From: Botryllus schlosseri
Taxonomy: Eukaryota
Length of the DNA: 64,000 nt
Assembly (NCBI GenBank): GCA_051294905.1
Contig: CM119371.1
Coordinates: 8,124,001 to 8,188,000, forward strand
Direction: 5' to 3'
Position numbers and translations under genes: made by a program. Each line of letters opens with the position of its first letter. Position 1 is the stretch's first letter. Positions 16,250-42,444 of the stretch are shown here, one piece after another. The notes beneath the pieces were generated by a model. It did no database searches. It saw nothing but the letters and a program-made list of their open reading frames with translations, and was not told the DNA's origin.

Positions 16250-16460
16250 GACCGACATATGAGCATGAGACGCAATGAAAGAACGAAATATCAGCATGCG
16301 TCTCTTTGGCGGATTACTTTACAAGCCAAAAATCTACCCCAACCCCACCATAATGCTGATTAGTACCGTTATGTATATATCCCAAATCTTACCCTAACCT
16401 CATTCTGAACCTTACCAGGCCCTGAACCCAAGTGTCACATGCTGATATGCTCATGTGTCC
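16250..16460. mobile_element. small MITE-like remnant with internal CCTAAC/CCCAAC-type repeats
   Basis: Inverted GACATATGAGCAT / ATGCTCATGTGTC ends enclose aatctaccccaacccc and accctaacct-like units. Confidence 0.35.
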
Positions 16461-20986: not shown

Positions 20987-23679
20987 ATTCGACAGTAACA
21001 TAACGCCACGTTACACGCCTAAATTTTAACGGCTGTAAGCCATCTAACAACGGGGAATGTGGATGGCCATGAAATTTGAATTTTTAATTGGGAGTGTCAC
21101 TGCCAATGGAATTCATTTGTCGCCTATGATCAGGAAGAATATATGTATCTGACAACAGTCTTGTCTCTCTGATTATTCAACTTATCGTGCAATTGAAGAT
21201 TTTATGGCGTGCGTTATGCATTCAAAGAAATCACACTTCTAAAGCTGTATTTGCGGGTGAGACTGAATTGTGTATGGGCGTAACTTCTTATTCTAATGAC
21301 TGTCGCATGTATCTGAGAACGGCCTTGTCGATCTGATTAATCAATGTATCGTGCAGCACAAGATTTTTAGGGCGTGCGATATCGGTTCCGATGAATGCGC
21401 GACTGACATAGGTTGCCATGCCAAAATCTATTTTGTTTTCGAAAGTATACAAACTTCGAGTCTATTTTGACGGACTAGATATATATCTTTATGTGGACCC
21501 ATTAACTAATTGAATGTATCGTACGTGTCCCATTCTATAAAAATATATGTTTGACTTACATGAGCAATTATTATCAGACGGTAACATTTTACATGAGTTT
21601 AGAGTAGGGTCCCGAGCTCCTAAATCCATAAATACTGCACTATCTGGGCCGTATAGTTGGACTTGCCTCAACCTCCTTCTCGCGATCAGACTCTCGGAAA
21701 CCTGTTATTCCCCTCCTCACGCTCCCGTGCTCACAATAATTCGTCGGTCAGACTTTCGTTACAGTCAGACTTTCGTTACAGTCAATTTGATTGAAGCGCG
21801 AAATTAAACAATGTAATTTTGTGTTTGCCTTGAAATTGTAATTCATTCATTCCTTTTTCCAAAGGTTTCGAGAACGTTGATTGAATCCATCCCGATTGTA
21901 ATCAGTAGCAATAGCCGCGACCCAAGCTATAACCGAAACCCTTCGGGTTTAACGTAAAGTACGGATTACTACTTGAATACACACTTTCTGAATTTTCATC
22001 ATCTAATGCAGAGGTCTCAAACTCAAATGTGCTCGCGGGCCAATTTCCCACTTTTTTATGACGCCGCGGGCTGCAGCACCAAAAATTGGGGAATTCAATG
22101 TAGGCCTATTTCCAAGTTAGCCTTATTTGACGGGAGCTTGTAGAGACTGACATTCCACAGGCATCGTAAAAATGGGATTTCCTATTGTGAATTCACGTCT
22201 GGCACGAAAAAATATTTTTTTTAGATATTTGAATAAAATTGTTGTGTACTTGGCATAGTTTGTCAAATTATTCAGTTGGAGACACCATGCGAGATAATGA
22301 ATGCATCAGTACATCGTAAAAGCTGTCGCGTTATAATTTAGCAGCTAGCGGACATTTGACCTGGCGCCAGGTAGAATTTTAAAATTTTACAGATATTGAT
22401 CTGATATCAGAGCATTGGAGCAGTACAGCCTAATCTGGGTCTCGGGTATACTCCTGATAACGAGGCTATTGATCATGTCATTACCAAAGTCAAATTAAAT
22501 CAGCGTTAGATCTACCTTCGAATATTTGAACAGATCAATAACAACAACTTGAATATAATGATTACTGTGCCATAGCAATGAAAATGTCCATTCGCCGAAG
22601 AATCCATTTGTGTTACAGCTGTGAAGCGTTGGCTACGACCACTTTATGCGATAATCACATGGATAAACATACCTAAGATGACACCAGGATGTAACCAACT
22701 ATACATGAAGAGGGCAACATAATGCCAATGGTTGCCATAAAGACCTGCCTAGATCTCTAAATAATGCTACGAAACGAAAGCTATATGACCTTTTAATATT
22801 TTACTATTTTCCATACCAGATTGATAGTTTGTTGCGTCCGTGGTTGAACCAATCCACGGCCTTCCGCGTCACACAAGTCTTTTTCTCTGATTGTATCTTT
22901 CGAGGTGACTCAACTCGATCCAGTTTTATTTTATCAACCATTGAGTTCAAGTTCGAGTAATTCTACAAAAGGTCGCGCCCAAGTCCAAATCACAATTTTC
23001 ACTACGAATCATCAACGGGTCATGTTTAACCATGCACCATAAACAAGTAATTTCACGTAATAGTTAATCTTCCACCGCGTCACATCTTTTGAAAGGGACG
23101 TAATAGTGAAGATTGATGAGTAGTTCTGACTTCTGGAGTAGTTTTAGAGCGGATTTTAGGTTCTCAAATTAAAAAAAATTGGTTGTTAAATATTGTCGAA
23201 TACTTCGAAATCCAAAATGCCGTTGCGAGCAGCACAGAATGGTCTCGTGGGCCACATGTGTGTGAGACAGTAGTATTATACACGGGGTTTATACGCCGAC
23301 CAATAGTCATCGAGTATTTGATCACGTGACATCTGTTATCCAATCAGAACGCAGCGCAATGTGGGCGTGGTTCCAATACGAGAGATGTTTTGGTTGTGTG
23401 AGAGATGGCATAGTTCCAGTCCAATAACGCTGATGATTACGTCATTATGATTGGCTTAGGGTTGCACATGATGATTGCGTAGTACGAGAGCGAGAAATGA
23501 CGTTGTCTCAGTCGGCAATTAACATAATAACGTAATTATTACATTTACCGCCGCCGCCGCAGCCACGCCGCTATTAATAAATTGTCGCGACGCACCGCCC
23601 GCCCGCGCGCTAATTTGTCGCGTCATTGCCACCCAGTTGTAAACATTTTCATGATTATTAAAATTTCTTTAGTTTATAG

Positions 23680-25960
23680 ATTATCTTGTGTTGTTCATGA
23701 ATTAGTTTGAAGACGTTCACTGTTTCACTGTTTCACTGTTTCATTGTTTGAAGACGTTCACTGTAATTTATATGATTTCAATGTTTAATAAAAATAGTTT
23801 AAATAAATCTCACAAAGTAATAAGATAAAAATTATTTAATATTGCGAATATCTAATCATTGTGAAATTAGCAATTATCTCATGTTGTTAATGAAAATGAT
23901 CAGCTTACGTTGTTGCACCAAAACAGGATTAAAATAATTTTTAGAGATTGCAGTTTTTAAATATTATTACTTTGTTTCTAACTTTGGAATAATATTTATT
24001 ATATTTTTATTCATTGAAATCATTGTAGCTTATAACGGGTGAACACCTTTTTAATAATATTGTTGCTTTGTGAATATCTTATTGAGTTTAGTTAAATTAT
24101 CGATTATCTATTTCGTGAGTTGAGACATCTATGCCTTGGTCAGAAATATGTGCATGCGTCTTGAAAAGCTAATTAATGGGAATAATTAATAAAAAAATTT
24201 AGTTTATTGAATATCTTGTGTTGTTGATGAATTTGTTTGAAGACGTTCACTGTTATAATCTACATGATTTCAATGATTAATAAAAATAATTGAAATAAAT
24301 CTCACAAAGTAATAATATAAAAATTGGCTAATATTGTGAATATCTAATCATTGTGAAAATAGCAAGTATCTCATGTTGATGAAAAAAATCAGCCTACGTT
24401 GTTAAAGCACCAAAACATGATTTAAATATGTTTTAAATATTCCAGTTTTTAAAAATATTTTTACATTGGTTCTTACTTTGAAATAATAATTATTATATTT
24501 TTTTCATCATTCATTGAAATCATTGTCGGTGAACGGTGAATATCTTTTTAATAATATTGTTGCTTTGTAAATATCCTATTGATTTTAGTTAAATTATCGA
24601 TAATCTTGTGTTGTTGATGAATTAGTTTGTACAAAAGACGTTCACTGTTATAATCTACATGATTTGAATTTTAATAAAACAATTTTCGGTTTATTCGCAA
24701 TCATATGCTCATGTATGCGAAACTGGTATTGCTTTTACGTCGCAAATCAAAAAAGGGATTCTAATATCGAGAAAGTCTGCCAGGATCTCAAGGGAGCTCT
24801 ATGCGTTGTTCTGAACGATTAGTAAATGTCGAGAAAGTATGCCAGGATCTCAAGGGAGCTCTACGCGTTGTTTTGTTGTGAATATGTTATCATTGTGAAA
24901 TTAGCAATTATCTCGTGTTGTTGATGAAAATATTCAGCTTACGTTGTTATAAGCAGCAAAACATGATTTAAATATGCTTAAAATATTCCATTTTTCAAAT
25001 AATATTACTTTGGTTCTAACTTTCGAATAATAATAAATATTATTAATAATATTTTTTCATTATTCATTGAAGTCATTGTAGCTTATAACGGTGAACATCT
25101 TTTGTACAACAAGCTCCAAGTTTAATTAGAATTAGAGCAACACAAAATTCAAACACCTTGCAACTCTCATGAAAGTGCATCGTATCATTACACAATATTA
25201 AACTTCATTCAATAATCAACATTTTATTGTGACTTCATAAATTCGTATTTTGAATTTTTTGTGATGAGATGAGATTGTTTGATATGCAAGTCGCGCATGA
25301 AGCAGATCTGTCCACCCTGTACTATAGTAATGTGTTAAATGTGTACTCAAATGTATATTGTGAATAAGACTAGTTACGGTCCAGCTACCGTGTTTGTTAA
25401 CCCATTGTGAAATGTCTGACGCCATATCTTCACCGTCACACTTGTACTCAACGCGAACGCTATATTGTAGCTTAATTTCTTTACGTAGTACGTGCAAACA
25501 TATGATGTGTCTCTCTCAATTTACTTTCAAAATTCATATGATACAACAGCATGGACTCAGAATGCCACTTGCAACATATGTATATGTATTTGTATGATAA
25601 TATTAGAAACAGCTGGCCTCTATAGGGAATTAACTGAATACATTCTTTGCCGATGGGTAGTGTCGCAGTACCTTACCGTATGCACTACAAAACGCTATCA
25701 TTTTACGGTATTAATGAGACACAAACCGAAGTAAAATTATCAAAAAATTGACTAATATTATGAATATCTTATAATTTTGCGTTAAATTAGCCATTTTCTT
25801 GTGTTGTTATTGTTTCACCATCACTGATTATTCTAATAATATTGTTGCTTTGTGAATATCTTATCAATTTTTTGTTAAATTATCAATTATCTTGTGTTGT
25901 TGATGAAAATAATTCGCTTGTATAAAATACGTTCACTATTATAATCTCCACGATTTCAAT
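23680..25960 (+). repeat. AT-rich subterminal degenerate direct repeats in the left arm (mirrored at ~36665-38945)
   Basis: ATCTTGTGTTGTTGATGAA...ACGTTCACT recurs at ~23681, 24211, 24601 and 25886. A 62-bp tandem duplication lies at 24767-24875. Confidence 0.8.
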
Positions 25961-28900
25961 GATTATTAAAAAATAAGCTAATGCAAGTTTCCAGAATGCT
26001 GATGCTGGCTATGCTATTGGAGCCTTTTCAAATAGAATACGCAGTACGATTATCGATGGTGGATGCAAAACAATCCTAATTCTCAACAAATTTTAATTGT
26101 CTCGGAATCATACCTATTGCGATATCAACTCTCCGCATTTTGTTGTATTTAGGGCTATTGCACAAGCTATCTCTAATATGCTGCAATATAGACAGGTTCG
26201 AACTTGTCTAGGGTATTCACTTCCCGTCAACTAGCTTTTCAAGACGCATTAATAAGCGCGCGTATTTAATTACCTAATCGTTGGATGAATATTCCTGGCA
26301 GGCATAGATGTCCCCAGGGAACCGAGCTAACTTCGCTTCTATTCTTTTTACATTGTTTGCAAAGCACGGGTATTTTGTGATTCCATTAGACTTCAATGGT
26401 TCTAGAATACTAAATTAATGAGAGTTGAATAAACCGTCAATTAATTTAGCATAAAGCATATGATATTCATATTACTTAGAGCTTACGTCGTTGAACAACC
26501 CTGATATGATCATACAGCGAAAGTATAGCCCTAAATAGCGGTAATATCTCCCAAGCATAAAAATAACGTGGTCGGAATGTACGTTTATTGCAAATTTATC
26601 TCTAAACAGAATGATCTGTAGCTTGTCGCATTCGAATTACTGAGCAGAATTGACATAGAACTATTAAGCAAAGCTGAAACATCTTCACTTCAGTTATCAT
26701 TCCCTTGAGACTACTAGTTATAGCAGAGGCAGACAAACTGTGATTTGCGGTTGTAGCACTTCAATGATTTCATGTGCGTTTCGCCATTTTGTTAAAGAAA
26801 TTTAACCTGATTATATATTAATGCATTTATAGCGTATTAGCAATATGCGAATGGTGGCTGTGGCGCTACAGGGTTCAAAATTAGCAATTGAACTCTCGAA
26901 TTGAACCTGATCATCAATCAATGACAAATCATTGTGCTCAACGCTATTTTTATGTGGTTCACTGATTCACAACTTTTACTGATCCACAAAGCACTTACGT
27001 TAGTCTTAAAACCTTCGCTGAAACACAAATTTTCGCCGAGTCATAAAACAAAAAATCTGGCAAAATATACATTCAACTACACATCTAATACTTTACTATA
27101 GTACAGGGGTGGGCAGAGCTGCTTCATGCGCGAGTCGCATATCAAAAATTTTATCTTTAAAAGAACCACAACACAAAAATCCAACATATGGATTTATGAC
27201 GTCACAAGGAAATGTAGGCTATCGAATGAAATTTATTATTGTGTGATGATAGGATGTGCAATTGTGCATACACGAGGGTTCTAATTCCAATCTAATTTGG
27301 AAAAACTATGTAGCTCTAAGTCAAATTCTAATCTAGTTCTATTCAACCTGTTTCAGTTACACACGCTTTTCAGAGACACTGCGAGCTTCACGGATTTTTA
27401 AATTTTCAAAATTAGGATTGATCGATAAATATGATACTATTTATCACTTGTATAAATATCACTGTGATATCAATCCAAGCTTATGCGGCTTAGTAATAAT
27501 TGGTTGTTTAGCAAAATCAATATTATGCTCAAATTATATCAGATATCGCATTGAATATAGCTAATCAAATTTTTATTACATATTAGTAGCTGCAGTCGGA
27601 TTTCAACATAACGACCAATTCCGATGCACATGCTACGTTTTCGAAACGACTACATTACTATTCGATAGCTGGACATATCAGTATTGTCTTCTAATGACTC
27701 GAGTCGTTACAATCCTGCTAATGGATTTCTAATTTAAACTTTGACTTGGACTTATTGATCAAGTAGGTAGTGGGGGTACCTGGTTATGTTACCAGCCTCG
27801 AGGCTATATTCTTTGGCAGCGATGAGGCTATTTATGTTCACCGCTCAGCACTTGACTATGGCGATGTGTATTTAGCACTATGTATTGATAATTACTTGCT
27901 TCCGAGAAATAAATAACATTAATTATTCGTTATATGATACTTTCCACAGATATTCTATTATGTGTTTTGAGACTACAGCGAGTTGATAATATTAATGCGT
28001 ACACTTTCAAGAAATAAGGACGTTGCTAACATTCAGATTTGCGTAAATTTCGCGTGATCAACTATGTACGATTTTTGTGTATTTCAGACTATGTATGTTC
28101 ATGTTCACGAAGACTGCGGTATCGCATGGATAAATGCATCATCGCTAATAAATTACTTGAATGCGACTCGATAACATTTATCCCTTGTAACGTACTCAAA
28201 CATGATTTTAGGTGTATTTAAGACTATTTATGTTCCTGAGATCTTTGATAGCGCAATGATTCGGTATGATTTCTATATTATTCCACTCTCGTTATTGGAC
28301 TGCGGTGTGACGCTGAACCTATCTCGATGCCCGGGCTTCCGCATTAACTTTTTTCGATTTCTTCTGCCTTATGTAGATTTAACATAAGGAAAGTTATTTC
28401 ACTCATATAATTTGAAATACGTATTTGCTCAAGATAAAGCCATAACGCTTGGAGTGAAATTTTACGAGGTTTTCGTTAATATTCAACTGGGCTAATTTCG
28501 AAATGTAAATTGAAAAACTCAAATATCGCATAGTAGGACTTCGCAAATTTTCGATATATTTTTGCTATTTTTTCATGGTGACAAGTCATTCGGAACGGTG
28601 AAATGCATTATAGGAAATAGATGAAACTGGTTCAATTCATCAAGACCCCTGAAAAAAGTACATTGGATTTCAACATTTTATTAGCAGGTTTGTTTGTTTT
28701 TTGGGTATTCATGGTGTTTGTCGACTGCTATGGTCATTTACACCAGGCCGATATTCTTCTTATTTTCCGTAACTGCCGACTTATAGCACGGCCCACCTCT
28801 AGGCTTTTGTAAGACACCGCTGACGCGGATGAGGTGGCGAGGAGGAGCCTAGGTAAACCTCCAACACTTAGCAGGTAATCGAAATACCACAAACTGGGCT

Positions 28901-30519
28901 AACCTTCGGAGTTGTTAAGTAAAGAAGTACTCGTACTTCTTCGGAGTACCCAATACTCTCAAGTCCTTATTATATTGGAGTGCTTCAACTTCATGATAGT
29001 TATAGTATTAAGCAGAAATATACCTGGAGTACTAATGTTTTACTTACTAGGAAATGACTACTTCTGTCTTATTTTAAAGGATTCCTCGCTCGACGCGAAA
29101 TTTTATTAGGTTTTGAATAATATCCAACATGTAGGTTCGCTTTGAAGGGTACTTCGTAAAACTCAAATATTGTACAGTGAGAGTTCGCAAATTCTCGATG
29201 TATTTTTTGGTATTTTTATTGCGGTAAGTCATTCCGCAGCGCGAAAATGCATCGTAGGATATAGATGAAACTGACACCGCTCACCAAGACCACTGGACCA
29301 CTGAAAAAAGTACATTTCAACATTTTAGTAGCAGTAAATTCCTAGTAAAGTATAAGAAGTGATGATTTCCGAGTGAGTTAAAAAGTAAGTATTGAAGGTA
29401 TAGTTTGGTCGAAAACCGAAAACTCTGAAATAGAAGTAGATGCAGTGTAAAAAGTTAATCACTTGATTAAGTATAGCGCAAGCGAACCAAACCTATACTT
29501 GAGTACTCCAAAATGTACAAGTACTTCGCTATGGACTCCCTCCACGTAAAAAGTGACTAGGTTTTAGACTACTTTATCGGTACTTAACAGTTTCAGTTTT
29601 AGATAAAATTTGGAATAAAAAACTAGCTCATTCACTCACTTGGAAATCTCTTCTTTAACCTGTACTTGAGCGTAGCAAGTAAATCTCATTTATTATTAAT
29701 TCTACACGTACACTTGACCATATTTTATGACTTACATAATTACTTTTCACTATATTTGAAGTCAAGTCTGTCAAATAGCAGTATATGTTACGATGATCTT
29801 ATATTCGTTCTGTTTGATCATCTTGACTAACGATATTCACGCGGCGAGCTCTCCAGTGATAGCCTTGGGACTTGGAACAGTGTTATATGACATCATAGCG
29901 ACACGAGGTTACGACAGTTTAGAATTAGCTACCTTACGACACCAAATTTCGTTAGTTCATCTCCACCTTCAAATATTGTGTTATACAAATATTGTGTATA
30001 CGCAACAAATACATATATGGCTTTGTTGTTGCAATCTTCAAAAAAAAAGTACTTCCCTCAGTAAGCAATTTCTCGTAGGCTATGCATATGCATACAAACG
30101 AGGACAGTTACATCAATGAGTGGTACCTTGTTGTATTAAGTAGCTAGTAATTAGTGCATGTAAGTCCGCAGCTACTGTTCAAGACCTTTCCGCGTTTTTG
30201 CCAAGCATCCTCGTAAGGACAGACAGTCCCAATCAGCTAATGTAAGTGTGTGTGTGTGTGTGTAGGCCTATCTATGTATGAGGGGTCTTATGCCGGTTGA
30301 CGAATGAAGTTGGTCGTCTATTCTATTCCGAAATAATCAAGTTAGTGGTTTTTAACAGGACCTGACCTCATAGAAACTTCAGTAGAATAACTTATAACTC
30401 CTCATGTTTACTCAAGTAAATCTAATTTGATAATCATGTACTGAATCTTAATTTTCAAACGAGTTCAAATTTAACTCTAACTTATGAGATTAAATATAAT
30501 AACTTTTCACGTTGCAGCG

Positions 30520-31200
30520 TATTTTACAGCATGAGCCAAGTGATTTCATAATTAACACAAGATAATTAAATGAATTTTTAGAGGATTATAAGATATTCGT
30601 GTCATCCTCCTTCGTATATCATAAAAGAATACCTACTGCAGTCGATTTGTAATTATTTGCGCTGTGTTTGATCAACTCAATCATGTTGCAGTGTTTTAAT
30701 AACGAAACTCTTTTACAGCATAAACCAAATAATTTCATAATAAACACAAGCTAATTGAATGAATTTACTCAAATGTAGTATGCCGCGCTGATAAGATTAA
30801 TTATAATATACTTATCGTGCTACAGTGATTTTTCAATAACGAAACTCTTTTACAGCACAAGCTAAGTAATTTCATAATAAGCATAAAATACCCGGTGTCG
30901 TTCATTTGTACTTATTTGCAGTCGATATTTTTTATATCTAATTCAGTCTTAGTTTGGTTATTGAGCCCATAAGGAATTTTCACTTTATCATGATCCGTAA
31001 GTACTAATTGATGATACATCCTCTTTTCAGCTTGAAGATGTGAACTATAAAATGTTGTATACCGCGCTGATGAGATTAATTATAACATACTTATCATGTT
31101 ACAGTGGTTTTTCAATAACTAAACTCATTTACAGCATAAGCAGAGTAATTTCATAATAAACATAAAATAACTGCTGTCGATGATTTGTACTAATTTGTGG
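30520..31200 (+). repeat. degenerate tandem repeats flanking the palindrome centre (mirrored at ~31425-32105)
   Basis: TTTTACAGCA...TAATTTCATAATAAACA recurs at ~30521, 30710, 30847 and 31126. Confidence 0.75.
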
Positions 31201-34200
31201 CGTGTACAATTAACTCAAGCAGCTCTAAAACATAGGAAGCAGGGCGATGGGTATTCGTTGAGTTGAAGAAACATAAAAAATATTTCCGCGCCCTTCTAGG
31301 TTGTAGGGTTAGGAATAATTAGGTTTAGTAGGGCGCGGAAATATTTTTTATGTTTCTTCAACTCAACGAATACCCATCGCCCTGCTTCCTATGTTTTAGA
31401 GCTGCTTGAGTTAATTGTACACGCCACAAATTAGTACAAATCATCGACAGCAGTTATTTTATGTTTATTATGAAATTACTCTGCTTATGCTGTAAATGAG
31501 TTTAGTTATTGAAAAACCACTGTAACATGATAAGTATGTTATAATTAATCTCATCAGCGCGGTATACAACATTTTATAGTTCACATCTTCAAGCTGAAAA
31601 GAGGATGTATCATCAATTAGTACTTACGGATCATGATAAAGTGAAAATTCCTTATGGGCTCAATAACCAAACTAAGACTGAATTAGATATAAAAAATATC
31701 GACTGCAAATAAGTACAAATGAACGACACCGGGTATTTTATGCTTATTATGAAATTACTTAGCTTGTGCTGTAAAAGAGTTTCGTTATTGAAAAATCACT
31801 GTAGCACGATAACTATATTATAATTAATCTTATCAGCGCGGCATACTACATTTGAGTAAATTCATTCAATTAGCTTGTGTTTATTATGAAATTATTTGGT
31901 TTATGCTGTAAAAGAGTTTCGTTATTAAAACACTGCAACATGATTGAGTTGATCAAACACAGCGCAAATAATTACAAATCGACTGCAGTAGGTATTCTTT
32001 TATGATATACGAAGGAGGATGACACGAATATCTTATAATCCTCTAAAAATTCATTTAATTATCTTGTGTTAATTATGAAATCACTTGGCTCATGCTGTAA
32101 AATACGCTGCAACGTGAAAAGTTATTATATTTAATCTCATAAGTTAGAGTTAAATTTGAACTCGTTTGAAAATTAAGATTCAGTACATGATTATCAAATT
32201 AGATTTACTTGAGTAAACATGAGGAGTTATAAGTTATTCTACTGAAGTTTCTATGAGGTCAGGTCCTGTTAAAAACCACTAACTTGATTATTTCGGAATA
32301 GAATAGACGACCAACTTCATTCGTCAACCGGCATAAGACCCCTCATACATACATAGGCCTACACACACACACACACACTTACATTAGCTGATTGGGACTG
32401 TCTGTCCTTACGAGGATGCTTGGCAAAAACGCGGAAAGGTCTTGAACAGTAGCTGCGGACTTACATGCACTAATTACTAGCTACTTAATACAACAAGGTA
32501 CCACTCATTGATGTAACTGTCCTCGTTTGTATGCATATGCATAGCCTACGAGAAATTGCTTACTGAGGGAAGTACTTTTTTTTTTGAAGATTGCAACAAC
32601 AAAGCCATATATGTATTTGTTGCGTATACACAATATTTGTATAACACAATATTTGAAGGTGGAGATGAACTAACGAAATTTGGTGTCGTAAGGTAGCTAA
32701 TTCTAAATTGTCGTAACCTCGTGTCGCTATGATGTCATATAACACTGTTCCAAGTCCCAAGGCTATCACTGGAGAGCTCGCCGCGTGAATATCGTTAGTC
32801 AAGATGATCAAACAGAACGAATATAAGATCATCGTAACATATACTGCTATTTGACAGACTTGACTTCAAATATAGTGAAAAGTAATTATGTAAGTCATAA
32901 AATATGGTCAAGTGTACGTGTAGAATTAATAATAAATGAGATTTACTTGCTACGCTCAAGTACAGGTTAAAGAAGAGATTTCCAAGTGAGTGAATGAGCT
33001 AGTTTTTTATTCCAAATTTTATCTAAAACTGAAACTGTTAAGTACCGATAAAGTAGTCTAAAACCTAGTCACTTTTTACGTGGAGGGAGTCCATAGCGAA
33101 GTACTTGTACATTTTGGAGTACTCAAGTATAGGTTTGGTTCGCTTGCGCTATACTTAATCAAGTGATTAACTTTTTACACTGCATCTACTTCTATTTCAG
33201 AGTTTTCGGTTTTCGACCAAACTATACCTTCAATACTTACTTTTTAACTCACTCGGAAATCATCACTTCTTATACTTTACTAGGAATTTACTGCTACTAA
33301 AATGTTGAAATGTACTTTTTTCAGTGGTCCAGTGGTCTTGGTGAGCGGTGTCAGTTTCATCTATATCCTACGATGCATTTTCGCGCTGCGGAATGACTTA
33401 CCGCAATAAAAATACCAAAAAATACATCGAGAATTTGCGAACTCTCACTGTACAATATTTGAGTTTTACGAAGTACCCTTCAAAGCGAACCTACATGTTG
33501 GATATTATTCAAAACCTAATAAAATTTCGCGTCGAGCGAGGAATCCTTTAAAATAAGACAGAAGTAGTCATTTCCTAGTAAGTAAAACATTAGTACTCCA
33601 GGTATATTTCTGCTTAATACTATAACTATCATGAAGTTGAAGCACTCCAATATAATAAGGACTTGAGAGTATTGGGTACTCCGAAGAAGTACGAGTACTT
33701 CTTTACTTAACAACTCCGAAGGTTAGCCCAGTTTGTGGTATTTCGATTACCTGCTAAGTGTTGGAGGTTTACCTAGGCTCCTCCTCGCCACCTCATCCGC
33801 GTCAGCGGTGTCTTACAAAAGCCTAGAGGTGGGCCGTGCTATAAGTCGGCAGTTACGGAAAATAAGAAGAATATCGGCCTGGTGTAAATGACCATAGCAG
33901 TCGACAAACACCATGAATACCCAAAAAACAAACAAACCTGCTAATAAAATGTTGAAATCCAATGTACTTTTTTCAGGGGTCTTGATGAATTGAACCAGTT
34001 TCATCTATTTCCTATAATGCATTTCACCGTTCCGAATGACTTGTCACCATGAAAAAATAGCAAAAATATATCGAAAATTTGCGAAGTCCTACTATGCGAT
34101 ATTTGAGTTTTTCAATTTACATTTCGAAATTAGCCCAGTTGAATATTAACGAAAACCTCGTAAAATTTCACTCCAAGCGTTATGGCTTTATCTTGAGCAA

Positions 34201-37200
34201 ATACGTATTTCAAATTATATGAGTGAAATAACTTTCCTTATGTTAAATCTACATAAGGCAGAAGAAATCGAAAAAAGTTAATGCGGAAGCCCGGGCATCG
34301 AGATAGGTTCAGCGTCACACCGCAGTCCAATAACGAGAGTGGAATAATATAGAAATCATACCGAATCATTGCGCTATCAAAGATCTCAGGAACATAAATA
34401 GTCTTAAATACACCTAAAATCATGTTTGAGTACGTTACAAGGGATAAATGTTATCGAGTCGCATTCAAGTAATTTATTAGCGATGATGCATTTATCCATG
34501 CGATACCGCAGTCTTCGTGAACATGAACATACATAGTCTGAAATACACAAAAATCGTACATAGTTGATCACGCGAAATTTACGCAAATCTGAATGTTAGC
34601 AACGTCCTTATTTCTTGAAAGTGTACGCATTAATATTATCAACTCGCTGTAGTCTCAAAACACATAATAGAATATCTGTGGAAAGTATCATATAACGAAT
34701 AATTAATGTTATTTATTTCTCGGAAGCAAGTAATTATCAATACATAGTGCTAAATACACATCGCCATAGTCAAGTGCTGAGCGGTGAACATAAATAGCCT
34801 CATCGCTGCCAAAGAATATAGCCTCGAGGCTGGTAACATAACCAGGTACCCCCACTACCTACTTGATCAATAAGTCCAAGTCAAAGTTTAAATTAGAAAT
34901 CCATTAGCAGGATTGTAACGACTCGAGTCATTAGAAGACAATACTGATATGTCCAGCTATCGAATAGTAATGTAGTCGTTTCGAAAACGTAGCATGTGCA
35001 TCGGAATTGGTCGTTATGTTGAAATCCGACTGCAGCTACTAATATGTAATAAAAATTTGATTAGCTATATTCAATGCGATATCTGATATAATTTGAGCAT
35101 AATATTGATTTTGCTAAACAACCAATTATTACTAAGCCGCATAAGCTTGGATTGATATCACAGTGATATTTATACAAGTGATAAATAGTATCATATTTAT
35201 CGATCAATCCTAATTTTGAAAATTTAAAAATCCGTGAAGCTCGCAGTGTCTCTGAAAAGCGTGTGTAACTGAAACAGGTTGAATAGAACTAGATTAGAAT
35301 TTGACTTAGAGCTACATAGTTTTTCCAAATTAGATTGGAATTAGAACCCTCGTGTATGCACAATTGCACATCCTATCATCACACAATAATAAATTTCATT
35401 CGATAGCCTACATTTCCTTGTGACGTCATAAATCCATATGTTGGATTTTTGTGTTGTGGTTCTTTTAAAGATAAAATTTTTGATATGCGACTCGCGCATG
35501 AAGCAGCTCTGCCCACCCCTGTACTATAGTAAAGTATTAGATGTGTAGTTGAATGTATATTTTGCCAGATTTTTTGTTTTATGACTCGGCGAAAATTTGT
35601 GTTTCAGCGAAGGTTTTAAGACTAACGTAAGTGCTTTGTGGATCAGTAAAAGTTGTGAATCAGTGAACCACATAAAAATAGCGTTGAGCACAATGATTTG
35701 TCATTGATTGATGATCAGGTTCAATTCGAGAGTTCAATTGCTAATTTTGAACCCTGTAGCGCCACAGCCACCATTCGCATATTGCTAATACGCTATAAAT
35801 GCATTAATATATAATCAGGTTAAATTTCTTTAACAAAATGGCGAAACGCACATGAAATCATTGAAGTGCTACAACCGCAAATCACAGTTTGTCTGCCTCT
35901 GCTATAACTAGTAGTCTCAAGGGAATGATAACTGAAGTGAAGATGTTTCAGCTTTGCTTAATAGTTCTATGTCAATTCTGCTCAGTAATTCGAATGCGAC
36001 AAGCTACAGATCATTCTGTTTAGAGATAAATTTGCAATAAACGTACATTCCGACCACGTTATTTTTATGCTTGGGAGATATTACCGCTATTTAGGGCTAT
36101 ACTTTCGCTGTATGATCATATCAGGGTTGTTCAACGACGTAAGCTCTAAGTAATATGAATATCATATGCTTTATGCTAAATTAATTGACGGTTTATTCAA
36201 CTCTCATTAATTTAGTATTCTAGAACCATTGAAGTCTAATGGAATCACAAAATACCCGTGCTTTGCAAACAATGTAAAAAGAATAGAAGCGAAGTTAGCT
36301 CGGTTCCCTGGGGACATCTATGCCTGCCAGGAATATTCATCCAACGATTAGGTAATTAAATACGCGCGCTTATTAATGCGTCTTGAAAAGCTAGTTGACG
36401 GGAAGTGAATACCCTAGACAAGTTCGAACCTGTCTATATTGCAGCATATTAGAGATAGCTTGTGCAATAGCCCTAAATACAACAAAATGCGGAGAGTTGA
36501 TATCGCAATAGGTATGATTCCGAGACAATTAAAATTTGTTGAGAATTAGGATTGTTTTGCATCCACCATCGATAATCGTACTGCGTATTCTATTTGAAAA
36601 GGCTCCAATAGCATAGCCAGCATCAGCATTCTGGAAACTTGCATTAGCTTATTTTTTAATAATCATTGAAATCGTGGAGATTATAATAGTGAACGTATTT
36701 TATACAAGCGAATTATTTTCATCAACAACACAAGATAATTGATAATTTAACAAAAAATTGATAAGATATTCACAAAGCAACAATATTATTAGAATAATCA
36801 GTGATGGTGAAACAATAACAACACAAGAAAATGGCTAATTTAACGCAAAATTATGAGATATTCATAATATTAGTCAATTTTTTGATAATTTTACTTCGGT
36901 TTGTGTCTCATTAATACCGTAAAATGATAGCGTTTTGTAGTGCATACGGTAAGGTACTGCGACACTACCCATCGGCAAAGAATGTATTCAGTTAATTCCC
37001 TATAGAGGCCAGCTGTTTCTAATATTATCATACAAATACATATACATATGTTGCAAGTGGCATTCTGAGTCCATGCTGTTGTATCATATGAATTTTGAAA
37101 GTAAATTGAGAGAGACACATCATATGTTTGCACGTACTACGTAAAGAAATTAAGCTACAATATAGCGTTCGCGTTGAGTACAAGTGTGACGGTGAAGATA

Positions 37201-40107
37201 TGGCGTCAGACATTTCACAATGGGTTAACAAACACGGTAGCTGGACCGTAACTAGTCTTATTCACAATATACATTTGAGTACACATTTAACACATTACTA
37301 TAGTACAGGGTGGACAGATCTGCTTCATGCGCGACTTGCATATCAAACAATCTCATCTCATCACAAAAAATTCAAAATACGAATTTATGAAGTCACAATA
37401 AAATGTTGATTATTGAATGAAGTTTAATATTGTGTAATGATACGATGCACTTTCATGAGAGTTGCAAGGTGTTTGAATTTTGTGTTGCTCTAATTCTAAT
37501 TAAACTTGGAGCTTGTTGTACAAAAGATGTTCACCGTTATAAGCTACAATGACTTCAATGAATAATGAAAAAATATTATTATTAATATTTATTATTATTC
37601 GAAAGTTAGAACCAAAGTAATATTATTTGAAAAATGGAATATTTTAAGCATATTTAAATCATGTTTTGCTGCTTATAACAACGTAAGCTGAATATTTTCA
37701 TCAACAACACGAGATAATTGCTAATTTCACAATGATAACATATTCACAACAAAACAACGCGTAGAGCTCCCTTGAGATCCTGGCATACTTTCTCGACATT
37801 TACTAATCGTTCAGAACAACGCATAGAGCTCCCTTGAGATCCTGGCAGACTTTCTCGATATTAGAATCCCTTTTTTGATTTGCGACGTAAAAGCAATACC
37901 AGTTTCGCATACATGAGCATATGATTGCGAATAAACCGAAAATTGTTTTATTAAAATTCAAATCATGTAGATTATAACAGTGAACGTCTTTTGTACAAAC
38001 TAATTCATCAACAACACAAGATTATCGATAATTTAACTAAAATCAATAGGATATTTACAAAGCAACAATATTATTAAAAAGATATTCACCGTTCACCGAC
38101 AATGATTTCAATGAATGATGAAAAAAATATAATAATTATTATTTCAAAGTAAGAACCAATGTAAAAATATTTTTAAAAACTGGAATATTTAAAACATATT
38201 TAAATCATGTTTTGGTGCTTTAACAACGTAGGCTGATTTTTTTCATCAACATGAGATACTTGCTATTTTCACAATGATTAGATATTCACAATATTAGCCA
38301 ATTTTTATATTATTACTTTGTGAGATTTATTTCAATTATTTTTATTAATCATTGAAATCATGTAGATTATAACAGTGAACGTCTTCAAACAAATTCATCA
38401 ACAACACAAGATATTCAATAAACTAAATTTTTTTATTAATTATTCCCATTAATTAGCTTTTCAAGACGCATGCACATATTTCTGACCAAGGCATAGATGT
38501 CTCAACTCACGAAATAGATAATCGATAATTTAACTAAACTCAATAAGATATTCACAAAGCAACAATATTATTAAAAAGGTGTTCACCCGTTATAAGCTAC
38601 AATGATTTCAATGAATAAAAATATAATAAATATTATTCCAAAGTTAGAAACAAAGTAATAATATTTAAAAACTGCAATCTCTAAAAATTATTTTAATCCT
38701 GTTTTGGTGCAACAACGTAAGCTGATCATTTTCATTAACAACATGAGATAATTGCTAATTTCACAATGATTAGATATTCGCAATATTAAATAATTTTTAT
38801 CTTATTACTTTGTGAGATTTATTTAAACTATTTTTATTAAACATTGAAATCATATAAATTACAGTGAACGTCTTCAAACAATGAAACAGTGAAACAGTGA
38901 AACAGTGAACGTCTTCAAACTAATTCATGAACAACACAAGATAATCTATAAACTAAAGAAATTTTAATAATCATGAAAATGTTTACAACTGGGTGGCAAT
39001 GACGCGACAAATTAGCGCGCGGGCGGGCGGTGCGTCGCGACAATTTATTAATAGCGGCGTGGCTGCGGCGGCGGCGGTAAATGTAATAATTACGTTATTA
39101 TGTTAATTGCCGACTGAGACAACGTCATTTCTCGCTCTCGTACTACGCAATCATCATGTGCAACCCTAAGCCAATCATAATGACGTAATCATCAGCGTTA
39201 TTGGACTGGAACTATGCCATCTCTCACACAACCAAAACATCTCTCGTATTGGAACCACGCCCACATTGCGCTGCGTTCTGATTGGATAACAGATGTCACG
39301 TGATCAAATACTCGATGACTATTGGTCGGCGTATAAACCCCGTGTATAATACTACTTGAGACCTCTGCCCTACAGCAAGTTAGCGTCCTGCGCTCATGAT
39401 TTGAAATACATAATACTTCTACTGAACAACCTGTTATAGCGACAAGTAAGTAAGTGAACAACATATACCAAACTAGCATAGAAGTAGCGAAAAATTAGAC
39501 TTACTCGAGTCCTGCAAGTGGAGGAAAACTACTGTAGTAATTCGAAAAAGTGGAAATACTTCATTGCTGACCACCTCTGATAATGAGTAACTATTTTTAT
39601 AAAGTGAAAGTCATTTACATGCATTACGAAATGATTTTCAACACCACTTTCAAACGTACGTTCATTATAAACGTTTATTGAAACGAGCTAACAGTACGAT
39701 AAAGGAATTGTGTTGAATTCAAAACCAAATGGAAAATCTTAAAATATCATCAAATACAGCCAGAACAAGGCAACAAGGCAGCGTAAAACAGCCATGCGAG
39801 CATGATACAAAGATGATACAATTAACGTTGGCAGATGTAATATTACACAGGAAAAAAGTGTGCGAAAGCAAGAAACACAACAACTTCACAACTACGACTA
39901 GTAGGATATCTCAAGATTATACAAATATTCTTTCTGACGACATAGGACCAGATTGTTCTGCTTAATGCACGTCGATTTCAACGCTGATAAGTGGAATGTA
40001 GATCTACCCTTTGATGGAACAGAAACCATATCATAGGAATAGTTTAGAGCGCACATCGGGATATCAATTAAATATCGACCGATGGACGGCTTTTACTTGG
40101 TTATATG

Positions 40108-40851: not shown

Positions 40852-42444
40852 TCATTTCAGAAATGATGCGCAAGACACACTCATATCCACACCCTGAGTA
40901 GCAGTAAATTTATTATATTTTTCAGAAACCATCAACTTGTCCAGTTCTACAGCACGTACTTTCGTTCCAGAATTCTTTCCATACAAATACAACTTGTCGG
41001 CGGCAAGAATGTTGCATCCAGCGAAGTAATTTTCAATGGTAAGACTAGGGATAGATTCCCATTGCATTGATATATTATTGTAGAATACAACTTCCCTTGA
41101 ATAGTCACTGATAGCATACACAGTCTTATTATAACTGAATACAGATCTTTCCGTTATTGAAATTGGTATGTTAGCGATCCGGTCACATCGCATCGTGCTT
41201 AGGTTAATCATAAAAGCATGTGTACTAGAAGAACCAGGTTCAGAATCAATCATATAAATGTATTCGTCAACACTTGCAATGGCAAATTTCTCACGTGTGT
41301 ATTTTTCATCTCTTTGGATTTTAATTGATGACGACGTGCCAATCCCAATTTCATATAGGATTACTTGTTCTGGTGTAACCATCGCTATATATTTTTCACA
41401 TATGATGCACCTGTTGTATCCTTCCTTCAAATCGCTCTCATACAATTTTTTCCATTCCAACTCACTGTAACTGAAGACTGCATTGCCGGTTGTGACATAA
41501 ATTATTTCTTTATGCTCTACTACATCAAGCCACTCTGTCTTTATGGCGTAAGGTAATTGCGAAAATTCCGACCATTTCTCTTCAATTAGACTGTACCTGC
41601 TCAGCGTCCTGGTGTTAGTGTGACATGTTATGATGCCGGTCATCTGTTCGCCACAAGCCAGGGGCACTTTGGAACTTTCATCCAATGCATAATCATTGCA
41701 CACTATTTTCTGCAGGCATTTCTTTGAATCATTCACTAACGCCTCACAGACAATATTTTCTTTGATAAATCGCTGGGGAATAAATGCTAGATTAATCGAC
41801 TGGAAGCAATCGTCGAAGGCATCTTTTCTTCCAACCTTGTCGTGTTTGACCCAGGTCACTACTGCAGTCCATTTCAACATTTCATATTCCCTACCCCAGT
41901 TTTCATCAAGGGATAACAAGTAAAGGAAATTTTCTTTTGGTAATGACCGCAGTTCCTTTGACTTGACAAATGTCTTGAGATCTTTTTGAAAAAAGATTTG
42001 AATTTCGGTTTTCAAAAGTTTCTTATCATAAATCCGAGACACCGATAGCATTTGTGCTACATTTCCCATGGTTATATTCTCGGAAAGAAATTCAACGTAG
42101 AGATCCGTCAAATCATGGAGGCAAAAGATATCCGATGCTTTTATGAAATCAGTGATGTGATTCAAAGTAAAATCAACTTTCCCGGTATAAATGAAGTTGA
42201 TACATTGTTTCACAATCTCACCAGGAGTATCTGGAAATGATACAATCCCAGTGTTCGATTCTTTTGTATCACTCGAAAACATGGCTCGGAAATATTCCGT
42301 CGCAACAATCAGTACGAATTTATGAACCTTGATTTCATCTTGGCCGGCCACTATTGTGATATCACAAAACTCTTCATTTTTTTTCAATGAATTCATGGAA
42401 TCGAGCATGTATCGTGGATGTGAGGAACATTCCTTTAGAGTCAT
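40852..42444 (-). CDS. Kelch-like protein (BTB-BACK plus divergent beta-propeller), intronless, 530 aa
   Basis: BTB (FCDITIVAGQDEIKVHKFVLIVATEYFRAMFSS...CINFIYTG) and BACK (KWTAVVTWVKHD...R). The C-terminal repeats are kelch-like in spacing but lack most GG doublets. Confidence 0.9.
   Translation of the reverse strand: MTLKECSSHPRYMLDSMNSLKKNEEFCDITIVAGQDEIKVHKFVLIVATEYFRAMFSSDTKESNTGIVSFPDTPGEIVKQCINFIYTGKVDFTLNHITDFIKASDIFCLHDLTDLYVEFLSENITMGNVAQMLSVSRIYDKKLLKTEIQIFFQKDLKTFVKSKELRSLPKENFLYLLSLDENWGREYEMLKWTAVVTWVKHDKVGRKDAFDDCFQSINLAFIPQRFIKENIVCEALVNDSKKCLQKIVCNDYALDESSKVPLACGEQMTGIITCHTNTRTLSRYSLIEEKWSEFSQLPYAIKTEWLDVVEHKEIIYVTTGNAVFSYSELEWKKLYESDLKEGYNRCIICEKYIAMVTPEQVILYEIGIGTSSSIKIQRDEKYTREKFAIASVDEYIYMIDSEPGSSSTHAFMINLSTMRCDRIANIPISITERSVFSYNKTVYAISDYSREVVFYNNISMQWESIPSLTIENYFAGCNILAADKLYLYGKNSGTKVRAVELDKLMVSEKYNKFTATQGVDMSVSCASFLK

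What the first reader, a model, noticed from the sequence alone, without database searches (positions are those of the whole stretch)
23269..39356. A 16-kb, gene-less, fully palindromic (snap-back) Polinton/Maverick-like element
Seen: two ~8.0-kb arms that are reverse complements, separated by only 35 nt. The ends read AGTAGTATTATACAC...GTGTATAATACTACT, an exact 6-bp duplication TGAGAC flanks both ends, and no integrase, pPolB, ATPase, protease or capsid ORF is present. Established: Polintons/Mavericks have 6-bp TSDs, AG termini built from 1-3-nt tandem repeats (used for slide-back in protein-primed replication), TIRs usually of hundreds of bp, and lengths of ~15-20 kb. Inference: here the whole element is TIR, as if the polymerase folded back at the midpoint and copied one half, like snap-back defective viral genomes. 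It was then integrated in trans by a helper Polinton integrase. Its 16,088-bp length falls in the unit-length range, which would fit selection for encapsidation: a satellite or defective-interfering parasite of polintoviruses. I cannot confirm novelty without a literature and database search.
Basis: partly seen in the sequence, partly recalled or inferred. Interest (0 to 1): 0.93.

Follow-up and report, generated by a model that had tools for sequence, protein, structure and literature searches.

The report
Palindromic gene-less Maverick hitch-hiker family
This 16-kb stretch built of two mirror-image halves is a gene-less hitch-hiker of a virus-like Maverick transposon, one of many such palindromes in this genome, and their near-helper size hints that Mavericks are packaged like viruses.

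Summary
Window 23269-39356 is a 16,088-bp near-perfect palindrome: arms of 8,030 and 8,031 nt, 6 mismatches plus one 1-nt indel, and a 27-nt loop. It has AGTAGT termini and a 6-bp TGAGAC duplication. Three of three paralogous empty sites confirm the insertion. No helper gene is present.

It is not a one-off. The same genome holds 17.8-kb autonomous Mavericks with the same termini. These encode pPolB, an rve+chromo integrase, an A32-type ATPase, capsid-like ORFs, Bcl-2 and an E2. I also found at least 13 simple palindromic, gene-poor derivatives of 13.7-19.0 kb (77-107% of helper length), two about 25-kb compound palindromes, and many further palindrome centres.

- Perfect 6-bp TSDs flank 18 of 19 pairs examined.
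- Both ends of the palindromes carry sequence specific to the helper's right end.
- All subfamilies share one asymmetric central loop, so the palindrome is inherited.
- Sibling copies at different sites share arm-specific differences, so the whole palindrome transposes.
- More distant copies differ at sites mirrored in both arms (306 mirrored against 1 shared arm difference), so arms are periodically homogenised.

Best reading: a helper-dependent inverted-dimer Maverick derivative mobilised in trans. Size selection for packaging is plausible by analogy with adenovirus vectors but is not shown. I found no description in print.

The parts
23263..23268 (.). left copy of the 6-bp target-site duplication TGAGAC
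   Evidence: Single copy at 3 of 3 paralogous empty sites.
23269..31298 (+). left arm, 8,030 nt
23269..23446 (+). terminal 178 nt shared with the TIR of the autonomous Mavericks (88%). Starts with (AGT)2. Mirrored at 39179-39356.
   Evidence: End-motif as described for vertebrate Mavericks (PMC8097293, passages read).
24686..24829 (+). 144-nt scrap (arm 1418-1561) matching helper positions 16970-16827 (90%). This is right-end-specific subterminal sequence in the collinear orientation. Mirrored at 37796-37939.
25977..26239 (+). two further scraps (arm 2709-2860 and 2885-2971) matching helper 16375-16515 and 16696-16776 (76-80%), inverted relative to the terminus
28462..29653 (.). stretch holding very high-copy dispersed repeats nested in the arm (28462-29057 and 29356-29653), also present in the mirrored position of the right arm
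   Evidence: word depth about 100-fold above the rest of the arm in 3 DNA runs. The RNA reads that lay here matched only in part.
31280..31298 (+). inner end of the left arm with the G+C-rich clamp ATATTTCCGCGCC. It pairs with 31326-31344. The clamp is conserved next to the loop in all subfamilies seen.
31299..31325 (+). asymmetric 27-nt central loop GGTTGTAGGGTTAGGAATAATTAGGTT with TTAGG(G)-like units. Conserved, in either orientation, in 7 centres from divergent copies.
31326..39356 (-). right arm, 8,031 nt, reverse complement of the left arm apart from 6 mismatches and 1 indel
39357..39362 (.). right copy of the target-site duplication TGAGAC

Best explanation
The element is a non-autonomous, helper-dependent derivative of the Maverick/Polinton elements that live in the same genome. 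It is built as an inverted dimer: two copies of an about 8-kb gene-less unit joined head to head through a short conserved loop.

Shown:
- It carries the helper's terminal sequence at both ends and was inserted with the helper family's 6-bp target duplication.
- It belongs to a family of at least 13 simple palindromes plus compound forms.
- Family members transpose as complete palindromes.
- Both ends of the family's arms derive from the helper's right end.
- Arms of one copy are far more alike than copies are to each other.

Inferred:
- The helper's integrase inserts it, and the helper's protein-primed polymerase replicates it from the two identical termini.
- The founding event was a fold-back (copy-back) of a right-end fragment at the short inverted repeat TATTTCCGCGCC/GGCGCGGAAATA.
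- Later fold-backs or arm-to-arm conversion reset the arms from time to time. This also yields mirror-symmetric chimeras and the 25-kb second-order palindromes.
- Weakest step (my odds about 0.4): the dimer form persists because it lifts an about 8-kb replicon to about 90% of helper genome length, the size a Maverick capsid would accept. Half-size helper-dependent adenovirus genomes likewise propagate as dimers.

The confidence given (0.75) is for identity and mobilisation in trans, not for the packaging step.
For: Helper in the same genome:
- A 17,829-bp element has a 236-nt TIR and a 1,310-aa ORF with family-B polymerase motifs. That ORF's nearest Atlas clusters carry PF03175 (scores 0.97, 0.96, 0.95; 19 of 30 hits).
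- It also encodes an rve+Chromo integrase, a Pox_A32 ATPase, Bcl-2 and UQ_con.

Termini and TSDs:
- The terminal pattern has 50 matches and 0 in the reversed control, forming 21 inverted pairs. A second terminus type has 7 matches.
- Perfect 6-bp TSDs flank 18 of 19 pairs examined.

Palindromy:
- Of 10 elements read in full, 6 are simple palindromes (arms 99.65-99.975%), 1 is compound, 1 is a short element with long TIRs, and 2 are autonomous without long repeats.
- Of 8 further midpoints, 5 are self-complementary. One more copy is on C13.

Right-end origin: helper right-end-specific matches occur in 8 of 9 arms. A left-end-specific match occurs in 1 of 9.

Inherited centre: the same loop and clamp appear in 7 centres, including a subfamily with arms only 89% identical to this element's.

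Transposition as a palindrome:
- C15a and C2b are the same 15,967 bp but have different flanks and TSDs. They are 100% identical over the about 1 kb sampled and share both of C15a's arm differences (2 of 2).
- C5b and C15b are 100% identical over 798 nt plus both ends.

Homogenisation: in five comparisons, 306 sites differ between copies and are mirrored in both arms. Another 25 are private to one arm, and 1 is an arm difference shared between copies.

Second-order forms: C11a (25,076 bp) and C4:27229361-27254959 (25,599 bp) each hold two palindrome centres and no internal termini.

Size: the 13 simple palindromes measure 13,718-18,998 bp, which is 77-107% of 17,829.

Analogy read in PMC4189039: adenovirus genomes below 75% or above 105% of wild-type length rearrange towards it, and 15-kb helper-dependent vectors are packaged as direct and inverted dimers.
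Against: - No extrachromosomal, protein-capped or encapsidated form was observed. Nothing here shows replication by pPolB.
- Elements far outside the size window also carry termini and clean TSDs (4,698 bp, 25,076 bp, 25,599 bp, 28,056 bp, 32,305 bp). Integration therefore does not need unit length.
- The 13 sizes are not independent, because the copies share ancestry. The clustering may be descent rather than selection.
- The sibling pair kept its arm differences, so arms are not rebuilt at every cycle. In-situ gene conversion between arms could explain their likeness without any viral step.
- The terminal 178 nt are only 88% identical to the helpers read. Only the first 15-20 nt are identical.
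- Only about 1.2 kb of C2b and about 1 kb of C5b and C15b were seen.
- No long read spanning this locus was examined.
Confidence: 0.75

Rival explanations
1. Same identity (non-autonomous Maverick derivative moved by the helper integrase), but the palindromy has nothing to do with capsids. It is a frozen accident of one fold-back template switch at a short inverted repeat. It is tolerated because integration needs only the two ends and is kept symmetrical by ordinary arm-to-arm gene conversion in the chromosome. Sizes are alike because the copies are relatives.
For: - One conserved loop in all subfamilies points to a single founding event.
- Sibling copies keep arm differences, so nothing is rebuilt per cycle.
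- Off-size elements with clean TSDs exist.
- Fold-back at short inverted repeats giving hairpin-capped linears and inverted dimers is described for cellular replication forks (PMC4689423 and PMC10766183, seen in a search listing with abstracts only).
Against: - It does not explain why gene-less filler of about 7 kb per arm is retained, or why short derivatives are rare among terminus pairs (1 of 24 pairs is under 13 kb).
- Mirror-symmetric chimeras would need conversion across a 3.5-kb tract whose ends are only 84% alike. An example is the outer module shared with C16a at 99% combined with the inner module shared with C13 at 99%.
Confidence: 0.35
2. A host-serving or host-exploited hairpin locus. 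Transcription through the palindrome would give long double-stranded RNA and small RNAs against Maverick termini, so the family persists as a silencing trap.
For: The structure would fold if transcribed. Arms carry helper terminal and subterminal sequence, and in C16a and C11a a 667-nt piece of helper coding sequence at 98%.
Against: Nothing here shows transcription or small RNAs. Recent transposition with new TSDs is selfish behaviour that needs no host function. Most of the arm is not Maverick sequence.
Confidence: 0.07
3. A member of another long-TIR or foldback transposon group (FB, Galileo/P, MULE or other) unrelated to Mavericks.
For: Near-total inverted-repeat structure and lack of genes resemble foldback elements (recalled).
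Against: TSDs are 6 bp in 18 of 19 pairs. They are not the 7-10 bp recalled for those groups. The termini and up to 1,047 nt of subterminal sequence match the autonomous Mavericks of the same genome.
Confidence: 0.02
4. Assembly fold-back artefact: the second arm is not in the organism's DNA.
For: Long-read chimeras can create palindromes. No spanning long read was examined, and laying Logan contigs did not resolve the centre.
Against: - Both flanks are different, non-complementary host sequence with a TSD and a paralogous empty site.
- The arms differ at 7 places.
- The same architecture recurs at more than 13 loci with different sequences.
- Two arm-specific differences are reproduced at two separate loci. 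An artefact would not do this.
Confidence: 0.02

Closest known systems
Autonomous Mavericks/Polintons of animals (for example the intact vertebrate Mavericks of Barreat and Katzourakis 2021, PMC8097293, passages read)
   Same: (AGT)2 end motif, 6-bp TSD and overall length near 17 kb. Termini are shared with bona fide autonomous copies in the same genome.
   Different: No pPolB, integrase, ATPase, protease or capsid gene. TIRs make up 99.8% of the element, against 46-1,447 bp reported there and 236 bp in this genome's helper. Both ends derive from one helper end.
Helper-dependent ('gutless') adenovirus genomes that propagate as inverted dimers (review PMC4189039, passages read). Also the left-end defective genomes of adenovirus incomplete particles (Daniell 1976; Hammarskjold and Winberg 1980), seen only as citations in PMC5033970, with content otherwise recalled.
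   Same: Protein-primed, capsid-limited replicon lineage. Gene-less genome with only terminal cis sequences plus filler. About half-size unit doubled in inverted orientation to about 90% of helper length. Dependence on a helper.
   Different: Those are laboratory or lytic-infection products seen as virion DNA. Here the dimers are integrated, heritable, diversified into subfamilies and transposing in a genome. Packaging is not shown.
Hairpin and palindromic deletion derivatives of the protein-primed yeast linear plasmid pGKL1 (Kikuchi et al. 1985, EMBO J 4:1881). Only the title was seen, in a reference list. Content is recalled and the paper is not held.
   Same: One end of a pPolB replicon is duplicated as a perfect inverted structure and maintained by the parent's replication machinery.
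   Different: Cytoplasmic plasmid, no integration and no TSD. The details are unverified here.
Foldback transposons (Drosophila FB, Galileo); recalled
   Same: Very long inverted arms and little or no coding capacity.
   Different: TSD length and termini differ. Those are moved by cut-and-paste transposases and have no link to a virus-like helper.
Butterfly polintons with about 2-kb TIRs that duplicate the hexon and adenain genes (bioRxiv 10.1101/2025.02.07.637071, passages read)
   Same: Shows that Maverick TIRs can expand well beyond the usual few hundred bp.
   Different: Those remain gene-bearing with a unique core. Here the unique core is 27 nt.
Copy-back (snap-back) defective genomes of RNA viruses and parvoviruses; recalled
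   Same: Both termini come from one genome end, with a stem-loop architecture and helper dependence.
   Different: Those arise anew in each infection. Here one ancestral centre is inherited and the form is a stable germline lineage.

Membership tests
Maverick/Polinton superfamily (as a non-autonomous derivative) | 6-bp target-site duplication | tested here: met
   TGAGAC at both ends. Single copy at 3 of 3 paralogous empty sites. 18 of 19 family pairs have perfect 6-bp TSDs.
Maverick/Polinton superfamily (as a non-autonomous derivative) | Termini made of short tandem repeats beginning AG, here 5'-(AGT)2...(ACT)2-3' | tested here: met
   AGTAGTATT...AATACTACT. The motif is listed for vertebrate Mavericks in PMC8097293.
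Maverick/Polinton superfamily (as a non-autonomous derivative) | Termini shared with an autonomous element of the same genome that encodes pPolB and an rve integrase | tested here: met
   88% over 178 nt, with the first 15 nt identical. Helper genes. Pfam itself did not report PF03175 for the polymerase ORF. Its identity rests on Atlas neighbours and on motifs visible in the translation.
Polinton sensu stricto (autonomous) | Encodes a protein-primed DNA polymerase and a retrovirus-like integrase (definition quoted in the abstract of PMC5499653) | tested here: not met
   No frame of 120 aa or more. No tblastn match to helper pPolB or integrase in this arm.
Helper-dependent inverted dimer / snap-back defective genome of a protein-primed virus | Both termini derive from the same end of the parental genome | tested here: met
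   Right-end-specific subterminal sequence in 8 of 9 arms, up to 1,047 nt collinear in C9a. In this element only 144 nt is collinear, plus two inverted scraps.
Helper-dependent inverted dimer / snap-back defective genome of a protein-primed virus | Total length held within the packaging window of the helper | tested here: inconclusive
   13 of 13 simple palindromes are 77-107% of 17,829 bp, but the copies are related. Off-size elements (4.7, 25.1, 25.6, 28.1 and 32.3 kb) also have TSDs.
Helper-dependent inverted dimer / snap-back defective genome of a protein-primed virus | Exists as an extrachromosomal, terminal-protein-capped or encapsidated molecule and interferes with the helper | not testable with these tools
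   Needs particle or extrachromosomal DNA preparations.
Foldback / Galileo / MULE-type long-TIR transposons | TSD of 7-10 bp and family-specific termini (recalled) | tested here: not met
   TSD is 6 bp throughout and the termini are those of Mavericks.
Assembly artefact | Flanks that are reverse complements of each other or lack a TSD, and arms without reproducible differences | tested here: not met
   Distinct flanks, a TSD and an empty site. Seven arm differences. Arm differences reproduced at two loci in a sibling pair. No spanning long read was seen (inconclusive).

The most novel reading that the evidence does not exclude
This is a natural satellite lineage of an animal polintovirus. It is a gene-less replicon that keeps only the helper's right-end origin (and presumably a packaging signal) and carries a programmed fold-back site: a conserved G+C clamp plus a TTAGG(G)-like loop. 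It maintains itself as an inverted dimer because only about unit-length DNA is encapsidated.

If so, the size distribution of these palindromes is the first genomic read-out of a capsid size limit for Mavericks. It would therefore be evidence that Mavericks in this host make virions and have their own hyperparasites, possibly interfering ones.
Probability: 0.3. Interest if true: 0.9.

Novelty: new variant of a known kind. Interest (0 to 1): 0.78.

Why it matters
Whether Mavericks/Polintons of animals are transposons or working viruses that build particles is still open. The papers read here say that virions have not been observed (abstracts of PMC8097293 and PMC7805220). Non-autonomous Mavericks are hardly described at all. 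The phrase searches returned 4 papers, none on such elements.

A diversified, recently mobile family of gene-less inverted dimers gives a concrete handle on three things:
- which terminal sequences suffice in cis (about 180 nt are conserved);
- which genome end matters (the right end);
- whether a genome-size rule like that of adenovirus applies.

It also shows that 16-kb near-perfect palindromes can be stably carried, copied and re-symmetrised in an animal germline. This bears on palindrome stability and on how assemblers and repeat annotators treat such loci.

Tried and rejected
- **Sequencing runs.** No RNA holder was listed. I laid Logan contigs of three DNA runs and raw reads of one RNA run on 22800-31720. 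The contigs are short fragments and no listed piece spans the centre or the junction, so this neither confirms nor questions the structure. RNA reads lay only, and only in part, on the nested high-copy repeat.
- **Large fetches of further copies.** Later copies were therefore sampled only at ends and midpoints, and the census is incomplete.
- **tRNA and Rfam scans of the arm.** Nothing found.
- **PDB sequence searches** with the helper polymerase and the capsid-like ORF. Only chance-level hits.
- **Pfam** did not name the polymerase, protease-like or capsid-like ORFs. The capsid and protease labels are therefore my reading of size and position only.
- **Earlier findings of this scan.** None.
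- **Papers wanted but not held.** Kapitonov and Jurka 2006, Daniell 1976 and Kikuchi 1985.
- **Considered and rejected: nested self-insertion as the origin of the 25-kb forms.** No internal termini are present.
- **Considered and rejected: rebuilding of the palindrome from one arm at every transposition.** The sibling pair keeps 2 of 2 arm differences.
- **Complex prediction, structure prediction and the large protein searches** were not used. The element is non-coding.


Full report
**1. The observation.**

The repeat finder reports two inverted pairs, 23269-30048 with 32577-39356 and 30040-31298 with 31326-32584. Together they make one palindrome. A base-by-base walk gives arms of 8,030 and 8,031 nt with 6 mismatches (arm positions 1775, 2502, 6649, 7004, 7543, 8027) and one extra A in an A-run. 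That is 99.91% identity, around a 27-nt loop GGTTGTAGGGTTAGGAATAATTAGGTT.

The ends read AGTAGTATTATACAC / GTGTATAATACTACT, and TGAGAC flanks both. The left flank is itself a high-copy repeat: 2,314 first-look candidates, 40 scored. In 3 of 3 paralogues read, the site is ...TTTGAGAC|CTCTG..., with one TGAGAC followed by the sequence that follows the element in the window. This is a paralogous empty site. It fixes the boundaries and the 6-bp duplication.

No stop-to-stop frame reaches 120 aa in the arm.

**2. The helper.**

The window is G000:C1:8124001-8188000 in a 495.5-Mb, 219-contig eukaryotic assembly. The terminal 302 nt hit many inverted pairs of sites. A terminus pattern gave 25 forward and 25 reverse matches, and 0 for the reversed-pattern control. 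These form 21 inverted pairs 4.7-32.3 kb apart plus 8 unpaired ends.

Six pairs are 17,829-17,873 bp apart. I read two of them in full. One (L036 and L037) has these frames:
- a 1,310-aa frame with the family-B motifs YDANSLY, KLCGNSAFG and YLEGDTDS visible in the translation (motif names recalled);
- a 352-aa rve+Chromo integrase;
- a Pox_A32-type ATPase fragment at the locus edge;
- 443-, 274-, 261- and 179-aa frames that Pfam does not name, at the positions where capsid and protease genes would be expected (my reading only);
- a Bcl-2 family gene and a ubiquitin-conjugating E2.

Pfam did not report PF03175 for the long frame. However, its nearest Atlas clusters (0.97, 0.96, 0.95; 19 of 30 hits) carry PF03175 DNA_pol_B_2.

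Its TIR is 236 nt at 97.9%. No inverted repeat of 300 nt or more occurs inside either copy. The two copies read are 96.8-97.9% identical. This is an ordinary autonomous Maverick. Its (AGT)2 end motif, 6-bp TSD and about 17-kb size match what Barreat and Katzourakis report for vertebrates: TIR 46-1,447 bp and size 16,862 +/- 1,678 bp (PMC8097293, passages).

**3. A family of palindromes.**

Of the 10 elements read in full:
- 6 are simple palindromes: C16a 14,974 bp (arms 7,329 nt, 99.93%), C9a 15,164, C15a 15,967 (99.975%), C1c 15,565, C4b 14,480 (99.65%, 1.9-kb spacer) and C5a 13,718 (99.84%);
- 1 is compound: C11a, 25,076 bp;
- 1 is a 4,698-bp element with 1.7-kb TIRs at 97.8%;
- 2 are the autonomous copies.

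- 5 of 8 midpoints are self-complementary: C2b 15,967, C5b 15,228, C15b 15,232, C10b 16,904 and C6b 18,998;
- 1 is partly so;
- 2 are not.

Searching with inner arm segments uncovered many more abutting plus/minus hit pairs, which are palindrome centres. Some lie in elements whose termini belong to a second type, AGTAGTAGTATAC.GGTCAACG, with 7 matches. Among them:
- C13:11297024-11312819, 15,796 bp, TSD CTAGAT, 99% identical to this element over the inner 4.5 kb but only 84% at the ends;
- C4:27229361-27254959, 25,599 bp, with two centres.

A subfamily whose arms are only 89% identical to this element's is also palindromic over all 8 kb fetched, at 99.58%.

Perfect 6-bp TSDs flank 18 of 19 pairs examined. 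C6b has 4 of 6.

The 13 simple palindromes measure 13,718-18,998 bp, which is 77-107% of 17,829.

**4. Where the arms come from.**

Against the helper, this element's arm matches only at three places:
- 1-178, the TIR, at 88%;
- 1418-1561, to helper 16970-16827, at 90%, collinear;
- 2709-2971, to helper 16375-16776, at 76-80%, inverted.

Relatives keep more. C9a 1-1047 is collinear with helper 17830-16692 at 88-89%. C1c, C4b and C15a extend 415-534 nt past the terminus into right-end-specific sequence. Right-end-specific matches occur in 8 of 9 arms. A left-end-specific match occurs in 1 of 9 (79 nt in the 4.7-kb element).

C16a and C11a also hold a 667-nt internal helper piece (6061-6727) at 98%.

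So both ends of the palindromes descend from the helper's right end. The rest of each arm is non-Maverick, repeat-rich filler. Part of it is very high-copy: 28462-29057 and 29356-29653.

**5. One inherited centre.**

Seven centres from divergent copies share the same asymmetric loop, in either orientation. It is flanked by the inverted clamp TATTTCCGCGCC / GGCGCGGAAATA. The seven are this element, C13, C2b, C5b, C15b, C6b and the 89% subfamily. The palindrome was therefore not made at this locus. It is a family trait.

**6. How it moves and how the arms stay alike.**

C15a and C2b have the same length but different flanks and TSDs (CATCCA and ATCATG). They are 100% identical over the 801-nt centre and both 100-nt ends sampled. 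C15a's only two arm differences (positions 6554 and 7105) are both present in C2b, on the same arms (2 of 2). C5b and C15b are likewise 100% identical over 798 nt and both ends, inserted in opposite orientations. The complete palindrome is therefore copied faithfully when it transposes.

Between less close copies the picture reverses. I made four-way alignments (left and right arm of each copy) of this element against C16a, C4b, C15a, C1c and C13:
- 306 sites differ between copies and are mirrored in both arms (20, 95, 98, 84, 9);
- 25 are private to one arm;
- 1 is an arm difference shared between copies, and it lies next to the loop.

Arms therefore coalesce later than copies do. Something re-symmetrises them on a time scale between single transpositions and subfamily divergence.

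The element is also a mirror-symmetric chimera. Its outer 3.5 kb is shared with C16a at 99% and its inner 4.5 kb with C13 at 99%. The two 25-kb forms read as A-c-A'(truncated) joined to (truncated)A-c'-A' with no internal termini. These are second-order palindromes.

Occasional new fold-back synthesis explains the chimeras and the second-order forms more simply than chromosomal gene conversion alone. I cannot exclude conversion.

**7. Mechanism.**

Shown:
- helper-type termini and TSDs;
- no genes;
- right-end origin;
- an inherited centre;
- transposition as a whole;
- arm homogenisation.

Inferred:
- integration by the helper integrase;
- replication by the helper's protein-primed polymerase from two identical origins;
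- a founding copy-back at the short inverted clamp.

The size argument rests on analogy. The review PMC4189039 (passages) states that adenovirus genomes below about 75% or above about 105% of wild-type length rearrange towards wild-type size. It also states that 15-kb helper-dependent vectors are packaged as direct and inverted dimers. PMC5033970 (passages) places the packaging domain next to one ITR and notes that incomplete particles hold left-end DNA.

An 8-kb gene-less unit doubled to 16,088 bp is 90.2% of the helper. Against this, elements of 4.7, 25.1, 25.6, 28.1 and 32.3 kb also carry TSDs, and the 13 sizes are not independent. I put the packaging step at about 0.4.

**8. Known or new.**

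Five full-text searches combined Polinton or Maverick with terms such as palindromic, non-autonomous, hairpin, foldback, snap-back and inverted dimer. None returned a paper describing palindromic or inverted-dimer Maverick derivatives. The nearest is a preprint reporting about 2-kb gene-bearing TIRs in butterfly polintons.

Repbase and Dfam, the founding papers (not held) and closed supplements could still hold such an entry.

I file it as a new variant of a known kind. It is a non-autonomous Maverick by termini and TSD. It is not a Polinton in the strict sense, because it lacks pPolB and integrase. It works like the inverted dimers of helper-dependent adenovirus genomes.

**9. Limits.**
- No spanning long read was seen.
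- The laid contigs were uninformative.
- The census is partial.
- Several copies were sampled at about 1 kb only.
- Nothing shows extrachromosomal or encapsidated forms.

Noticed in passing
window 31299-31325, and the centres of L052, L054, L055, L057, L077 and L086: The conserved central loop is made of degenerate TTAGG / TTAGGG-like units (for example TAGGGTTAGG and TTAGGTTTAGG). These resemble animal telomere repeats. Whether the founding fold-back involved a telomerase-healed end is unknown.
   Followed up: partly
L036:340-846 (+) and L036:1336-1818 (+) (G000:C1:20441437-20450500): The autonomous Maverick carries two accessory genes near its left end: a Bcl-2 family protein (PF00452, E 7.5e-20) and a ubiquitin-conjugating E2 (PF00179, E 2.1e-48).
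   Followed up: partly
L033-L035 (G000:C11:8544565-8569640) and G000:C4:27229361-27254959: These are about 25-kb compound elements with proper termini, and for C11a a TSD. Each is made of two truncated palindromic units joined tail to head. They are second-order palindromes without internal termini.
   Followed up: partly
window 28462-29057 and 29356-29653 (mirrored in the right arm): Very high-copy dispersed repeats are nested in the arm. Word depth is about 100-fold above the neighbouring sequence in three DNA runs, and partial RNA-seq matches occur here. The same loose-end consensus appears at 28871 in all runs. Repeat family not identified. tRNA and Rfam scans were negative.
   Followed up: partly
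window 22869-23268: The insertion site lies about 12 nt from the end of another high-copy repeat (2,314 first-look candidates, copies 85-88% identical).
   Followed up: partly
window 12159-13784 (-) and 40852-42447 (-): Two long uninterrupted frames encode BTB-BACK(-Kelch) proteins of 541 and 531 aa (Pfam BTB, BACK and Kelch_1 in the first; BTB and BACK in the second). The palindrome sits between them, about 1.5 kb beyond the 3' end of the second.
   Followed up: partly
window 51054-51839 (+): A 261-aa open frame with no Pfam match. A stretch reading ...VVYQYKCHCDSRYVGRTSQRL... recalls a GIY-YIG-type motif as found in some retroelements (recalled, untested).
   Followed up: no
L056 (G000:C10:27399033-27399833): The centre of the 16,904-bp palindrome reads as a run of N, either withheld or an assembly gap. 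It lies exactly where the loop should be. The 342 nt on either side are 99.7% complementary.
   Followed up: no
window 29565 joined to 31342, opposite strands (runs X5 and X7 of coded organisms B and C): Contigs from two other organisms join these positions on opposite strands. This suggests that relatives hold a palindromic junction at a different place in a related element. Side lengths are only 31-32 letters, so this is weak.
   Followed up: no
G000:C6:10008990-10027987 (L057, L067, L068): This 18,998-bp palindromic copy is the only pair without a clean TSD (4 of 6 bases). It may be older, or its flank may be rearranged.
   Followed up: no
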